Assembly (NCBI GenBank): GCA_964016885.1
Contig: CAXHJY010001412.1
Span: forward strand, 13,291 to 77,290
Direction of reading: 5' to 3'
Origin: Eledone cirrhosa
Taxonomy: Eukaryota
Length of the DNA stretch: 64,000 bases
Shown one piece after another: positions 45,002-59,744 of the stretch. Position 1 is the first letter of the stretch. Each line of letters opens with the position of its first letter. The notes under the pieces are model-generated. The model had not been told where the DNA came from. It ran no database searches and was given only the letters and a program-made list of their open reading frames with translations. The translations under genes were made by a program, and so were the position numbers.

Positions 45002-45540
45002 ATGGTGGCTGCCAACTCGTTTTCGAGTACGGCCACTACTTTATATCCATGTAGGAGAACCCCTACCGATGCGCTGAACGAGTGTGACTTTTCAGTCCGG
45101 CCAGCGACTTGAAAACCCCGGTACAAACACTACACATGTGACAATTATTGACACATAGTGCTGGGCCCATGGTGCCATGTGACGACAAGTGCAGAGAGAT
45201 CTCCAGATATAAAGCAATGCCTGTGCCGTGAAGCTTTTATAGTGAGCAAAGGCACTGCACAAAGCCAGTCCCACTCTCTTAACCAAGATGATATTTACCA
45301 AAAAGAAGAACAAGTCAACATCATTGGATATCATCAGGGTTGCAGGTGTGATATCAGAGTTTTCCTTCTCCTAGAATTCTGCCTTGACAAAGGCTAAGGG
45401 GTCATCTCTCCCGGTGATTTTGGATGGCCATTGACTTTTAAGAGCTCCTTTGCCCTTTGACAGGTTTTGTTTTTAGTCCTGCAGGATGTCCAAAGTCACC
45501 CTCCCTCACCAAGAAACCTTGGTGGGTTGCCACTGGCAAC
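45002..45540 (-). mobile_element. Bipartite RTE-derived non-autonomous element, copy 1
   Basis: Shares the 3' end ...CTCGAAAACGAGTTGGCAGCCACCAT with four other copies; 539 bp. Confidence 0.85.
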
Positions 45541-46691
45541 ACATATATATATATACATACATATACACATATTATATATATACATACAATTACACATATA
45601 TATATATACATACATATACACATATATATATTACATACATATACACATATATATATATACAATACTATATATACTTACATATATATATATATATATATAT
45701 ATACATACATATATAATACATAACATATATATATATATATACAATACATACATATATATATACATATATATATACTATATATATATTATACATACATATA
45801 TATACATATAATATTATAAATATATATATATATATATACATATATATATACATATATATATACATACAATATATATATATTATACATATATATATATATA
45901 TATAACAATATCTATATATATATATATATATATACATATATATATACATATATATATACATACATATATATATATATATATATATACATATATATATACT
46001 ATATATATATACATACATATAGTATATATATATATATACATATAAATATATATAGTATATATACATACATATATATATACATACATATATATATATATAT
46101 ATATTACATACATATATATATATATATATACATACAATATATATATATATTATATATACATATATATATTACATACATACATATATATACATACATATAT
46201 ATATATATATATATACATATATATATATACATATATATATACATATATATATATATACATACATACATATATATATACATACATACATACATATATATAT
46301 ATATATATATATATATATATACATACATACATATATATATATATATATATATATATATATACATACATATATATATATATATATATATATATACATACAT
46401 ATATATATATATATATATATATATACATACATATATATATATATATATATATATATATATATACATACATATATATATATATATATATATATACATACAT
46501 ACATACATATATATATATATATATATATATACATACATATATATATACATATATATATACATATATATATATATATATATATATATATATATATACATAC
46601 ATACGTACATACATATATACATACATACATACATACATACATATATACATACATACATATATATATACATACATACAAGTATGTAATTAAC

Positions 46692-46749
46692 CTTTATGCT
46701 CTGATGAGTCCCACTTATAGTGCGGATGAAACAATGTTAGCAAGTAAAG
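46692..46749 (+). ncRNA. Minimal type I hammerhead ribozyme in a PLE-like island
   Basis: CTTTA-TGCT-CTGATGA-GTCC(CAC ttata GTG)c GGAT-GAAA-CaatG-TT-AGCA-ag-TAAAG. Both cores are intact and stem I is extended. Confidence 0.7.
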
Positions 46750-49035
46750 ATATGCATATGCTATAAGCGTTCTTTGTTAGTTATTATATTACGGCTCTGT
46801 CCTCAGACATTGAGCTAACCTCATACTACCTGCTGGATAAGTGGAGTATTACACACCCCTGATCCTTTCCCTAGCATACTATATATATATACATACATAC
46901 ATACATATATACATACATACATACATATATACATACATATATATATACATACATACATACATATATATACATACATACATACATATATATACATACATAC
47001 ATACATATATATATACATACATATATATATATACATACATATATATATACATACATATATATATACATACATACATATATATATATATACATACATATAT
47101 ATATATATACATACATATATATATATATATATATACATACATATATATATATATATACATACATATATATATATATACATACATATATATATACATACAT
47201 ATATATATATACATACATATATATATACATACATATATATATATACATACATACATATATATATATATACATACATATATATATATATACATACATATAT
47301 ATATATATATACATACATATATATATATATATACATACATATATATATATATATATATATACATACATATATATATATATACATACATACATACATATAT
47401 ATATACATACATACATATATATATATATATATACATACATATATATATATATATATACATACATACATACATATATATACATACATACATACATATATAT
47501 ATACATACATACATATATATATATATATATATATACATACATATATATATATATATATACATACATATATATATATACATACATATATATATATATATAT
47601 ACATACATATATATATATATATACATACATATATATATATATATACATATATATATATATATACATACATATATATATATATATATACATACATATATAT
47701 ATATATATATACATACATATATATATATATATATACATACATATATATATATATATATACATACATATATATATATATATATACATATATATATATATAT
47801 ATATACATACATATATATATACATATATATATATATATATATACATACATATATATATATATATATACATATATATATATATATATACATATATATATAT
47901 ATATATATACATACATACATATATATATATACATACATATATATATATACATATATATATATATACATATATATATATATACATACATATATATATATAT
48001 ACATACATATATATATATACATGCATACATACATATATATATATATACATACATATATATATATATACATACATATATATACATACATATATATACATAC
48101 ATACATATATATATATATATACATACAAACATACATATATATATATACATATACATATATACATACATACAAACATACATATATATATATACATATACAT
48201 ATATACATACATACAAACATACATATATATATACATATACATATATACATACATACAAACATACATATATATATATACATATACATATATACATACATAC
48301 ATATATATATACATACATACATACATACATACATATATACATACATACATACATACATATATACATACATACATACATACATATATACATACATACATAT
48401 ATATATATACATACAATATATATATACATACATACATATATACATACATACATATATACATACATACATATATATACATACATATATATATACATACATA
48501 CATATATATACATACATATATATATACATACATACATACATATATACATACATATATATATACATATATATATACATACATACATATATACATACATATA
48601 TACATACATATATACATACATATATACATACATACATACATACATACATACATACATACATACATACATACATACATACATACATACATACATACATACA
48701 TACATACATATACATACATACATACATATATATATATATATACATACATACATATATATATACATACATACATATATATATACATACATATATATATATA
48801 CATACATATATATATATATATACATACATACATATACATACATATATATATATATACATACATATACATACATATATATATATATACATACATACATATA
48901 TATATACATACATATATATATATATACATACATACATATATATATACATACATACATATATATATACATACATATATATATATATACATACATACATATA
49001 TATATACATACATATATATATATATACATACATAC

Positions 49036-55074: not shown

Positions 55075-58000
55075 ATACATACATACATATATATATACAT
55101 ACATATATATATACATACATACATACATATATACATACATATATATATACATACATACATATATATATACATACATATATATATACATATATATATACAT
55201 ATACATACATATATATATACATATATATATATACATATATATATATACATATATATATATACATATATATATACATATATATATATACATATATATATAC
55301 ATATATATATACATATATATATATACATATATATATATACATATATATATATACATATATATATATACATACATATATATACATACATATATACATATAT
55401 ACATATATATATACATACATATACATATACATATATATATACATACATATACATACATACATATATATATACATACATATATATATACATACATATATAT
55501 ATACATACATATATATATATATACATATATATATATATACATATATATATACATATATATATACATATATATATAACATACATATATATATACATATATA
55601 CATATATATATACATATATATATACATATATATATACATATATATATACATATATATATACATATATATATACATATATATATACATATATATATACATA
55701 TATATATACATATATATATACATAGTATATATACATACATATATATATACATATATATATACATACATATATATATACATATATATATACATATATATAT
55801 ACATATATATATATATACATATATATATACATATATACATATATATATACATATATATATACATATATATATATATACATATATATATACATATATATAT
55901 ACATATATATATATATACATATATATATATATACATATATATATATATACATATATATATACATATATATATACATATATATATATATACATATACATAT
56001 ACATATATATATATACATATATATATACATATATATATACATATATATATACATATATATATACATATATATATACATATATATACATATATATATACAT
56101 ATATATATACATATATATATACATATATATATACATATATATATACATATATATATACATATATATATACATATATATATATACATATATACATATATAC
56201 ATACATATATATATACATATATATATACATATATATATACATATATATATACATATATATATACATATATATATATACATATATACATATATATATACAT
56301 ATATATATACATATATATATATATATATATACATATATATATACATATATATATACATATATATATATATATATATATACATATATATATATATATATAT
56401 ACATATATATATACATATATATATACATATATATATATATATATATATACATATATATATACATATATATATATATATATATATATATACATACATATAT
56501 ATATATATACATACATATATATATACATATATATATATATATATATATATACATATATATATACATATATATATATATATATACATATATATATACATAT
56601 ATATATATATATATACATATATATATATATATACATATATATATATACATATATATATATATATATATATATATACATATATATATACATATATATATAT
56701 ATATACATATATATATATATATACATATATATATATATATATACATACATATATATATATATACATACATATATATATATATACATACATATATATATAC
56801 ATACATATATACATATATATATACATACATATATACATATATATATATATACATATATATATACATATATACATATATATATACATATATATATATATAT
56901 ATACATACATATATACATACATATATACATATATATATATATACATATATATATACATATATACATATATATATACATATATATATACATATATACATAT
57001 ATATATACATATATATATACATATATATATACATATATATATATATATACATATATATATACATATATATACACATATATATACATATATATATATATAT
57101 ATATATATATATATACATATATATATATATATATATATACATATATATATATACATATACATATATATATATACATATATATATACATATATATATATAT
57201 ATATACATACATATATATATACATACATATATATACATATATATATATATATATACATATATATATATATATACATATATATATATACACATATATATAT
57301 ACATATACATATATATATATACATATATATATATACATATATATATACATATATATATACATATACATATATATATATATACATATACATATATATATAC
57401 ATATATATATACATATATATATACATATACATATATATACATATACATATACATATATATATATACATATATATATATACATATATATATATATACATAT
57501 ACATATATATATATACATATATACATATATATATATACATATATATATATACATATATATATATATATACATATACATATACATATATACATATATACAT
57601 ATATACATATATATATACATATATACATATATATATACATATATATATATATATATACATATACATATATATATATATACATATACATATATATATATAC
57701 ATATACATATATACATATATATATATACATATATATATATATACATATACATATATACATATACATATATACATATATACATATATATATATACATATAC
57801 ACATATATATATATACATATACACATATATATATATATATATATATATACATATACATATATATATATACATATACATATATATATATACATATACATAT
57901 ATATACATATACATATATATATATACATATACATATATACATATATATATATACATATATATATATACATATATATATATACATATATACATATACATAT

Positions 58001-59203
58001 ATATATATACATATATATATATACATATATATATATACATATATATATACATATATATATATACATATATATATATACATATATATATATACATATATAT
58101 ATATACATATACATATATACATATATATATACATATACATATATACATATATATATATACATATATATATATACATATATATATATACATATATATACAT
58201 ATATATATATACATATATATATATACATATATATATATACATATATATATACATATACATATATATATATACATATATATATATACATATATATATACAT
58301 ATATATATATACATATATATATACATATATATATACATATATATATATATATATATATATATAACATATATATATACATATATATATACATATATACATA
58401 TATATATACATATATATATATATATATATATACATATACATATATATATATACATACATATATATATATATATATATATACATATACATATATATATATA
58501 CATACATATACATATATATATATACATACATATATATATATATATACATATATATATATACATACATATATATATATACATATATATATACATATATACA
58601 TATACATATATACATATACATACATATATATATATACATATATATATATACATATATATATATACATACATATATATATATACATATATATATACATATA
58701 CATATATACATATACATACATATATATATATATATACATATACATACATATATATATATATACATATATATATATACATATATATATATACATATATATA
58801 TATACATATATATATATACATATATATATATACATATATATATATACATATATATATATACATATATATATACATATATATACATATATATATACATATA
58901 TATATATATATACATATATATATACATATATATATATGTATATATACATATATATATACATATATATATACATATATATACATATATATATATATATATA
59001 TATATACACATATATATATATATATATACATATATATATACACATATATATATATATATACATATATATATACACATATATATATATATATACATATATA
59101 TATACACATATATATATATATATATACATATATATATACACATATATATATATATATATACATATATATATACACATATATATATATATATATACATATA
59201 TAT

Positions 59204-59744
59204 ATGGTGGCTGCCAACTCGTTTTCGAGTACGGCCACTACTTTATATCCATGTAGGAGAACCCCTACCGATGCGCTGAACGATTGTGAATTTTTAGTCC
59301 AGCCAGCGACTTGAAAACTCTGGTACAAACACTACACTTGTGTCAATTATTGACACAGTGCTGGGCCCATGGTACCATGTGACGACAAGTGCAGAGAGAT
59401 CTCCAGATATAAAGCAATGCCTGTGCCGTGAAGCTTTTATAGTGAGCAAAGGCACTCCCACTCTCTTAACCAAGATGATATTTACCAAAAAGAAGAACAA
59501 GTCAACATCATTGGATACCATCAGGGTTGCAGGTGTTATATCAGAGTTTTCCTTCTCCTAGAATTCTGCCTTGACAAAGGCTAAGGGGTCATCTCTCCCA
59601 GTGATTTTGGATGGCCATTGACTCTTAAGAGACCTTTGCCCTTTGACAGGTTTTGTTTTTAGTCCTGCAGGATGTCCAAAGTCACCCTCCTCACCAAGAA
59701 ACCTTGGTGGGGTTGCCAGTTTAGTCGCCAACGACCCGACCATG
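59204..59744 (-). mobile_element. Bipartite RTE-derived element, copy 5 (longest 5' extent)
   Basis: Same 3' end, extends to ...ACGACCCGACCATG on the plus strand, and has a small internal deletion near 59456. Confidence 0.85.

What the first reader, a model, noticed from the sequence alone, without database searches (positions are those of the whole stretch)
45002..59744. Microsatellite-homing bipartite RTE-derived retroposon family (five copies)
Seen: five highly similar copies, all on the minus strand, share the 3' end (stem-loop GCC..CTCG-AAAA-CGAG..GGC then AGCCACCAT) running directly into (ATGT/ATAT)n. Their 5' ends differ (539, 418, 455, 383 and 541 bp). The 3' part still encodes [23 protein letters not shown]. 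The 5' part contains AAGGCAG..TCTAGGAGAAGGAAAACTCTGAT, which I recognise from memory as an RTE (AviRTE-like) 5' UTR motif. There is no tRNA head and no RT. Known: a fixed 3' end with variable 5' ends is the TPRT signature, and bipartite 5'UTR+3'end RTE derivatives exist. Inference: these are independent recent insertions of a non-autonomous element that targets TA/TACA tracts.
Basis: partly seen in the sequence, partly recalled or inferred. Interest (0 to 1): 0.8.

Follow-up and report, generated by a model that had tools for sequence, protein, structure and literature searches.

The report
RTE-derived retroposon nesting in TA microsatellites
Five cut-short copies of a short jumping element, made of a front piece and the tail end of an RTE-type LINE, sit in the same direction inside one long TA/TACA repeat tract, likely because the element's own repeat tail pairs with such repeats when it inserts; this type of element is known, and a strong liking for microsatellites would be an unusual twist.

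Summary
Five minus-strand copies share one 3' end, have five different 5' ends, and have TA/TACA repeat on both flanks. They differ only by private changes (star pattern), as independent insertions would. The element joins a published RTE 5'-UTR domain to the last zinc finger, 3' UTR and stem-loop of an RTE-type ORF that ends in three C2H2 fingers. Public contigs show a colinear unit of about 636 nt, highly repeated in one run. All five window copies are 5'-truncated and about 80 nt of head are missing, so 'no tRNA head' is unproven. A truncated sister LINE with the same stem-loop and three copies of another LINE also lie in this tract, on the same strand. Most likely mechanism: trans-mobilisation by the RTE enzyme, with the RNA's (GUAU/AU)n tail priming on the ATAC/AT strand. 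That gives a polar preference for these tracts, including earlier copies' tails. Strict targeting is not shown: some public copies appear to have short tails beside unique DNA, and other LINEs share the habit. Known class, unusual insertion bias.

The parts
45002..45541 (-). copy 1, 5'-truncated, with a 9-nt inverted duplication at its 5' junction
   Evidence: 8 of 366 core sites differ from the majority
50227..50644 (-). copy 2, 5'-truncated; carries two variants that also segregate among public copies
   Evidence: T>C at copy-5 positions 59338 and 59410
52284..52738 (-). copy 3, 5'-truncated, 2-nt deletion in the finger remnant
54692..55074 (-). copy 4, shortest, 1 of 366 sites from the majority
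59204..59744 (-). copy 5, longest; private 13-nt and 2-nt deletions; lacks about 80 nt of the 5' end
59207..59238 (-). terminal stem-loop (copy 5 coordinates; identical in all five), likely the recognition signal for the RT
   Evidence: same core at the end of IdioSINE2
54753..54881 (-). ORF remnant in copy 4: end of the second finger, last C2H2 finger and stop codon of an RTE-type ORF
   Evidence: HMM from 16 homologous C-termini, iE 3e-9; Pfam zf-C2H2 E 6e-5, below the curated cut-off; alignment
59391..59398 (-). inferred junction between the 5' part and the RTE 3' part (copy 5 coordinates)
   Evidence: ORF homology starts here; contigs of runs X4 and X13 leave the element at 59398
59540..59583 (-). 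[quoted passage not shown]
   Evidence: 23-nt exact match to OegopSINE; close to Sepioth-SINE1, RTE-3_BF and AviRTE
59638..59744 (-). 5' module, also carried by other public sequences that then diverge; origin unresolved
   Evidence: tables 3, 7 and 8; motifs not found in the two supplements' non-coding consensus passages
49036..49825 (-). 5'-truncated sister LINE: ORF end with three C2H2 fingers (49544-49822), microsatellite-filled 3' UTR, same terminal stem-loop; both flanks TA/TACA
   Evidence: (tblastn to P0049, 44%, E 1e-16)
42590..64000 (.). host tract: mosaic (TA/TACA)n of one polarity, interrupted by insertions
   Evidence: TACA 1663 against TGTA 16 on the + strand in 44610-64000

Best explanation
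These are five 5'-truncated copies of a short (about 640 nt) non-coding retroposon that joins an RTE 5'-UTR domain to the last zinc finger, 3' UTR and stem-loop of an RTE-type LINE, and that was likely pasted five separate times into one TA/TACA tract by the parent LINE's enzyme. Inferred steps: the RTE protein (APE endonuclease, RT, three C-terminal C2H2 fingers) binds the terminal stem-loop in trans and nicks TA-rich DNA. The RNA's 3' end, which runs on into (GUAU/AU)n, anneals to the freed (ATAC/AT)n strand and primes reverse transcription, which usually stops early. Pairing with a polar repeat fixes the orientation. Each new tail is a new target, so copies pile up head-to-tail and the spacers then lengthen by slippage. 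The result is a strong preference, not a strict target site.
For: Shown. Fixed 3' end with five different 5' ends and a 9-nt 5' inversion in copy 1. No shared minority allele among the five; 1-9 of 366 sites from the majority. Copy 2 carries two variants seen at about 23% and 12% of summed depth in run X1. Repeat on the 5' flank as well as the 3' flank in 5 of 5 copies, and 6 of 6 with the sister. The tract is polar, and 9 LINE-type 3' ends in it all lie on the strand that reads ATGT/AT. One 636-nt contig of run X4 covers 59206-59745 without a joint, and depth in X1 does not dip at the junction, so the fused form is the replicated unit. X1 holds joints from a truncated 5' end into another copy's tail at 3 places (5 contigs; two with 8 and 36 nt of ATAC-like spacer), and an X19 contig runs from a truncation point into ATAC repeat. 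The 5' domain matches published RTE 5'-UTR sequence. Full ORFs with endonuclease, RT and three terminal fingers exist (P0156, P0160, P0167, P0173, P0178). The sister keeps 10 of 12 stem pairs, with one change on both sides (two distinct rows, not significant). From papers: tail-target pairing is proposed for RTEs (PMC6007223).
Against: One locus only; no genome was held, so there is no genome-wide count of flanks. An 816-nt X1 contig carries about 700 nt beside a 3' end, and an X13 contig shows a tail of about 20 nt before other letters; both suggest copies beside unique DNA (the X1 flank letters are not shown). A 59-bp pure repeat with an 8-bp duplication sits inside a LINE ORF at 44606-44672, so such tails may also be written into ordinary DNA. 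An unrelated GAT-tailed LINE has three 3' ends abutting TA runs, and another LINE at 40013-42589 is flanked by TA repeats on the opposite strand, so the tract may be a general sink. Target-site duplications cannot be read inside the repeats. The direct parent LINE was not found. Bov-B copies are reported to be rarely flanked by tail-like targets (PMC13295347).
Confidence: 0.65

Rival explanations
1. No real preference: the element inserts widely, writes its own (GTAT/AT)n tail as RTEs do, and this long tract is a tolerant sink in which many families survive.
For: RTEs generate 3' microsatellites (PMC2887409 abstract). Tail-only insertion with an 8-bp duplication in ordinary DNA. Other LINEs lie in the same tract. 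Hints of unique flanks in runs X1 and X13.
Against: The 5' flanks are repeat in 5 of 5, and those of copies 1 and 5 are not bounded by another copy's tail. No copy lies in the other 45 kb. All share one orientation relative to a polar tract. Public truncation points run into ATAC repeat.
Confidence: 0.15
2. Strict, protein-encoded target specificity: the parent RTE's endonuclease or three-finger array reads TA/TACA repeats, as R1, Tx1 or R4 elements read their targets.
For: 6 of 6 copies of two related families (element and sister) have repeat on both flanks. The lineage carries three terminal C2H2 fingers, whereas a C2H2 finger is called relatively rare in RTEs (PMC9115989).
Against: The fingers carry small residues (S, A, G) at the usual base-reading positions, have long linkers, and also score with the jaz and met finger models; by the recalled C2H2 code this fits RNA or backbone binding better. 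There are hints of copies outside long repeats.
Confidence: 0.12
3. Local amplification: one insertion was multiplied by unequal crossing-over in the tract and trimmed by deletions.
For: Five copies within 15 kb, on the same strand, inside recombination-prone repeats.
Against: No shared breakpoints, no shared minority alleles, and identical 3' flank runs of only 0-8 nt. Copy 2 carries variants found among public copies. The spacers hold different unrelated inserts.
Confidence: 0.05
4. On identity rather than targeting: the full unit is a SINE with a small-RNA-derived head (like Ceph-SINEs, CoeSINE4 or SINE2_Gav), of which only truncated copies are in the window. This can be true together with the best explanation.
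For: About 80 nt of unseen 5' sequence, roughly tRNA-sized. The 5' module is shared with other sequences that have different bodies. Ceph-SINEs carry the same RTE domain behind a tRNA head.
Against: The 30 visible letters of the head show, by eye, a short hairpin but no canonical B-box. No CORE motif is visible in copy 5. All five copies are truncated, which is more LINE-like (recalled).
Confidence: 0.25

Closest known systems
Bipartite ORF-less non-autonomous RTE LINEs (Bov-A, RTESINE1/2, WALLSI3, MAR4_MD, RTE-N2_Lch; Kojima 2018, PMC5786205, main text parts 1-4 of 5 read)
   Same: 5'-UTR sequence joined to the 3' end of an RTE, no RT, microsatellite tail, inferred mobilisation in trans.
   Different: The 3' part is about 190 nt and keeps a whole zinc-finger coding remnant, whereas the listed examples keep about 40-90 nt. 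All window copies are embedded in repeat on both sides.
Ceph-SINEs (OegopSINE, Sepioth-SINE1, IdioSINE2; Kojima 2018 supplement, passages and part 4 of 15)
   Same: 23-nt exact match in the RTE 5'-UTR domain (OegopSINE); the same TACTCG...CGAG terminal hairpin core as IdioSINE2.
   Different: No CORE domain or tRNA head in the part seen; the body and 3' part differ; longer.
AviRTE and its SINEs (Suh et al. 2016, PMC4844689; passages and supplement motif search)
   Same: Shares the conserved 5'-UTR domain; its SINEs have a bipartite tail.
   Different: A looser match than to Ceph-SINEs; the other five motifs tested were absent from the AviRTE consensus files; AviRTE's 3' UTR is about 40 bp and a 13-bp target duplication in a gene intron is reported.
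RTE-2_OV of Octopus vulgaris and the O. bimaculoides RTE (Petrosino et al. 2022, PMC9115989; passages and one supplement table)
   Same: RTE ORF with endonuclease, RT and C2H2 finger, and a 3' UTR made mostly of microsatellite, as in the sister element. Of 16 rows seen out of 211 insertion calls, 4 have (AT)n or ATAC-type duplications (rows picked by my search terms).
   Different: Autonomous; sequence identity to this family could not be tested (motif search 0 hits, and the transcript files were not readable); other calls have ordinary duplications.
Microsatellite-targeting non-LTR retrotransposons (Togen on (TG)n and some HERO, PMC4640811 passages; Mino on AC repeats, PMC3124438 passages; Dong, Waldo and Koshi recalled)
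   Same: Insertion into simple repeats, tandem piling of copies.
   Different: These belong to RLE-type clades or to R1 and Tx1, are autonomous, and their specificity is thought to be protein-encoded; here it is an RTE derivative and only a preference is shown.

Membership tests
Bipartite non-autonomous RTE LINE | Carries RTE 5'-UTR sequence | tested here: met
   Motif match to the published RTE 5'-UTR domain
Bipartite non-autonomous RTE LINE | Carries the extreme 3' end of an RTE-type LINE | tested here: met
   HMM and tblastn match to C-termini of EN+RT+C2H2 ORFs; stem-loop shared with the sister LINE. That these ORFs are RTE clade rests on recalled motifs and single-ORF layout; no tree against named RTEs was built.
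Bipartite non-autonomous RTE LINE | Internal deletion removes EN and RT, and the fused form is the replicated unit | tested here: met
   No RT match in the copies; a 636-nt colinear contig and no depth dip at the junction
Bipartite non-autonomous RTE LINE | Begins at the parent LINE's own 5' end (no foreign head) | tested here: inconclusive
   About 80 nt of the 5' end are missing from the window and only 30 were seen; parent not found
Bipartite non-autonomous RTE LINE | TPRT signature: fixed 3' end with repeat tail, variable 5' truncation | tested here: met
Bipartite non-autonomous RTE LINE | Target-site duplication | tested here: inconclusive
   Both flanks are the same simple repeat, so a duplication cannot be told
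tRNA-headed SINE (SINE2, Ceph-SINE type) | tRNA-derived head with A and B boxes | tested here: inconclusive
   None in the window, but the head is truncated in all five copies
tRNA-headed SINE (SINE2, Ceph-SINE type) | CORE-like Ceph 5' half directly before the RTE domain | tested here: not met
   By eye, the sequence upstream of the RTE domain in copies 1, 2, 3 and 5 lacks the conserved motif shown
Target-specific (microsatellite) non-LTR retrotransposon | Nearly all copies genome-wide flanked by the same repeat on both sides | tested here: inconclusive
   5 of 5 in the window; supporting and opposing hints in public contigs; no genome held
Target-specific (microsatellite) non-LTR retrotransposon | Specificity encoded by the endonuclease or DNA-binding domain | not testable with these tools
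   Needs the parent ORF and a retrotransposition assay
AviRTE family | Nucleotide similarity along both UTRs | tested here: not met
   1 of 6 short motifs found in the AviRTE consensus files; a motif look-up in partly cut text, not an alignment

The most novel reading that the evidence does not exclude
An RTE lineage with three terminal zinc fingers has become a microsatellite-homing clade. Its short derivative inserts almost only into (TA/TACA)n with fixed polarity, seeds new repeats with its tail and re-targets them, a feedback loop that builds multi-kilobase polar repeat tracts and accounts for much of this genome's simple-repeat load. It would add RTE to the few APE-type clades with target-specific members.
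Probability: 0.25. Interest if true: 0.7.

Novelty: new variant of a known kind. Interest (0 to 1): 0.4.

Why it matters
RTE elements are described as inserting at many sites with only weak preferences: PMC6007223 names Tx1 and R1 as the only APE-type clades with site-specific members, and PMC13295347 finds Bov-B rarely flanked by tail-like targets. A young, very abundant RTE derivative that nests in polar TA/TACA tracts would be a natural, large-sample test of whether tail-target pairing steers insertion. It would also help explain how very long TA-rich tracts grow in some animal genomes. Practically, such copies hide inside masked simple repeats and confound repeat annotation and microsatellite markers. 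If the bias proves weak, this is an ordinary new member of a known class.

Tried and rejected
No whole genome was held, so no genome-wide flank count was possible. Exact-pattern scans found nothing: metagenome contigs 0 in 2 scans, prokaryote genomes 0 in 2 (65, 69), viral contigs 0 in 2 (66, 67). A search for the direct parent with the 57-aa finger remnant among longer proteins scored no hit (weak evidence). Rfam over 44-61 kb gave only repeat-driven miRNA noise in the 150 rows shown of 386; copy 5 alone and the 46.7-kb island gave nothing. No RNA holder was listed; run X19 is only guessed to be RNA, so nothing is said on expression. Horizontal transfer: 20 listed runs of 16 studies hold the sequence (14 with half the words or more). 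The host was not identified: an RT search gave almost only unnamed hits, and 'octopus-like' is my recollection of the repeat landscape. The 'Twain' SINE is recalled; the paper was not held and the search found nothing relevant, so identity with it or with Repbase, Dfam or Zenodo families is untested. Local duplication was rejected. Look-ups of earlier scan notes by sequence and place were empty. Literature searches that found no description of this family or of a microsatellite-specific RTE. The library lacks most subscription journals and Repbase Reports.
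Full report
Observation. Their last 49 nt are identical and fold into a stem-loop (-17.2 kcal/mol, z -2.78, 2 of 200 shuffles as good). Each runs straight into (GTAT/AT)n. The 5' ends all differ, and copy 1 begins with a 9-nt inverted duplication. BLAST finds no copy in the first 45 kb of the window. Both 40-nt flanks are simple repeat in 5 of 5 copies, against 14,944 of 57,450 window positions (0.26^5 = 0.0012). 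This is a single locus chosen after the fact. The tract is polar: TACA 1663 times, TGTA 16 times on the + strand.

Independent insertions. Over 366 ungapped core columns the copies are 95.4-98.9% identical and differ from the majority at 8, 5, 9, 1 and 3 sites. No minority allele is shared by two copies, and the 3' flanks agree for only 0-8 nt. Copy 2 carries two variants that also occur in run X1, at about 23% and 12% of summed depth; a third X1 variant at 37% is in none of the five. This fits separate insertions from a family with subfamilies, not local duplication.

Anatomy, 3' part. About 190 nt hold the end of an ORF, a 61-nt UTR and the stem-loop. The window holds a sixth, missed insertion at 49036-49825: a truncated LINE end with three C2H2 fingers, a repeat-filled 3' UTR and the same stem-loop (29 of 34 nt). 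It keeps 10 of 12 pairs with one two-sided change, which is not significant on two rows. Searching with that peptide gave 1,423 hits at E up to 0.001. Most of the 150 listed were generic multi-finger proteins, but a subset matched end to end at 40-53%, including P0049 with an RT domain. From P0049, 26 of 153 candidates scored E up to 1e-10; several are single ORFs of 1,030-1,190 aa with endonuclease, RT and terminal fingers. I call them RTE clade from recalled motifs and layout; no tree was built. An HMM from 16 of these C-termini matches all five copies (iE 3e-9 to 1.5e-6) and, in copies 1-4, starts at the end of the second finger.

Anatomy, 5' part. At 59540-59583 lies the conserved RTE 5'-UTR domain of Kojima 2018 (PMC5786205; main text parts 1-4 of 5; supplement passages and part 4 of 15). 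It has a 23-nt exact match to OegopSINE and a looser match to AviRTE (PMC4844689; passages; supplement motif search, where 1 of 6 motifs hit the AviRTE files). IdioSINE2 ends in the same hairpin core. The junction is likely near 59398: ORF homology starts at about 59391, and contigs of two runs leave the element at 59398.

Public data. 20 of 24 listed runs hold the stretch or part of it, from 16 studies, none on record as RNA. I laid 4 of the 20. X1 laid 14,919 contigs, with summed depth of 0.5-2.0 million along the element and no dip at the junction. Depth is not a copy number, but the family is very abundant there. X4, X13 and X19 laid 5, 10 and 2 contigs at low depth, which fits trace DNA. 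One X4 contig of 636 nt covers 59206-59745 colinearly. X4, X13 and X19 all continue beyond copy 5's 5' end with the same letters (80, 77 and 31 nt). So the unit is about 640 nt, all five window copies are truncated, and the head is unknown: 30 letters were shown, with no canonical B-box by eye. 'No tRNA head' is therefore open. The module at 59638-59744 is also carried by other sequences that then diverge.

Targeting, for. X1 has joints from a truncated 5' end into another copy's tail at 3 places (5 contigs), two with 8 and 36 nt of ATAC-like spacer; one further joint changes strand inside the element. An X19 contig runs from a truncation point into ATAC repeat (284 loose-end rows were not shown). 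In the window, nine LINE-type 3' ends in 42590-64000 (five copies, the sister, three of a GAT-tailed LINE) all lie on the minus strand.

Targeting, against. An 816-nt X1 contig carries about 700 nt beside a diverged 3' end, and an X13 contig shows about 20 nt of tail before other letters, suggesting copies beside unique DNA. A 59-bp pure repeat with an 8-bp duplication interrupts a LINE ORF at 44606-44672 and is absent from the intact copy. The GAT-tailed family abuts TA runs at 42804, 43631 and 53557 but not at 12440 or 15945. Another LINE at 40013-42589 sits between TA repeats on the plus strand. So the tract attracts several families, and strict specificity is not shown.

Mechanism. Shown: structure, truncation pattern, flanks, polarity, abundance in one run. 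Inferred: trans-mobilisation through the stem-loop, nicking in TA-rich DNA, priming by pairing of the (GUAU/AU)n tail with the ATAC/AT strand, re-use of earlier tails as targets, and growth of spacers by slippage. Tail-target pairing is proposed for RTEs in PMC6007223 (passages). The fingers are unlikely base readers: small residues at the contact positions, long linkers, and matches to the jaz and met models (recognition code recalled). I give this reading 0.65, a neutral sink 0.15, protein-encoded specificity 0.12 and local duplication 0.05. Separately, I give 0.25 that the full unit has a small-RNA head.

Comparison. It works like the bipartite non-autonomous RTEs (Bov-A, RTESINE, WALLSI3, RTE-N2_Lch) and meets four of six features tested; the 5' start and the target duplication are undecided. 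RTEs make 3' microsatellites (PMC2887409, abstract only), yet Bov-B copies are rarely flanked by tail-like targets (PMC13295347, abstract and Discussion). Microsatellite-specific elements are reported in other clades (PMC4640811 and PMC3124438, passages). An octopus RTE with a C2H2 finger and a microsatellite 3' UTR resembles the sister element (PMC9115989, passages). Its supplement lists 211 insertion calls, 55 passing filters; 4 of the 16 rows I saw have AT- or ATAC-type duplications, but my search terms picked those rows. My motifs had 0 hits in the four files searched at first; the transcript files were empty as held, not searched or too large, and may bear on identity. PMC13282606 (parts 1-2 of 3) reports 893 unclassified recently active SINE families in O. 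vulgaris, so this family may already sit in an automated library. PMC8967140 (passages) added only background. The host is not identified; octopus-like is recalled. Ten literature searches found no description of this family or of a microsatellite-specific RTE.

Verdict. A real, young, abundant RTE-derived retroposon of a known class, with an insertion bias that is clear at this locus and unproven genome-wide. New variant of a known kind; interest 0.4. The bold case, a microsatellite-homing RTE lineage that builds polar repeat tracts, has probability 0.25 and interest 0.7.

Noticed in passing
window 49036-49825 (-): 5'-truncated sister LINE: three C2H2 fingers, a 3' UTR of about 500 nt filled with CA, AAT and A repeats, and the same terminal stem-loop; it resembles the described layout of RTE-2_OV.
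   Followed up: yes
window 44606-44672: 59 bp of pure ATAC/AT repeat plus an 8-bp duplication inside a LINE ORF, absent from the intact copy near 16913; looks like a tail-only reverse-transcription product that seeds a new microsatellite.
   Followed up: partly
window 46686-46873 (+), core about 46700-46732: Unique island in the tract with both hammerhead core motifs around a hairpin; Rfam does not score it, fold z -1.86. Possibly a piece of a Penelope-like element's terminal repeat (recalled association).
   Followed up: partly
window 42804-43624, 43631-44739, 53557-53735 (-); 10001-12456 (+); 15945-19460 (-); also near 21613-22616 and 38071-38982: Abundant (GAT)n-tailed LINE family whose RT relatives carry a PHD domain. 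The three most alike 3' ends (96-99%) abut TA runs; two others do not.
   Followed up: partly
window 40013-42589 (+): Truncated LINE of CR1/L2 look (recalled motifs, not tested), flanked on both sides by TA/TACAAA repeat, on the strand opposite to the other insertions.
   Followed up: no
window 2543-9300: 32-bp satellite, 211 copies, 96% matches.
   Followed up: no
window 60279-60505: AT-rich unique island inside the tract with no match elsewhere in the window; origin unknown.
   Followed up: no
window 59638-59744 and 59398-59592 against runs X4 and X13: Other public sequences share the 5' module or the middle part but continue differently, pointing to sister families with swapped bodies or tails, or to the autonomous parent.
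   Followed up: partly
proteins P0156-P0180: A set of mostly unnamed single-ORF LINE proteins with RT, an endonuclease in many, and terminal C2H2 fingers (three in the six read), ending in a conserved [12 protein letters not shown] motif.
   Followed up: partly
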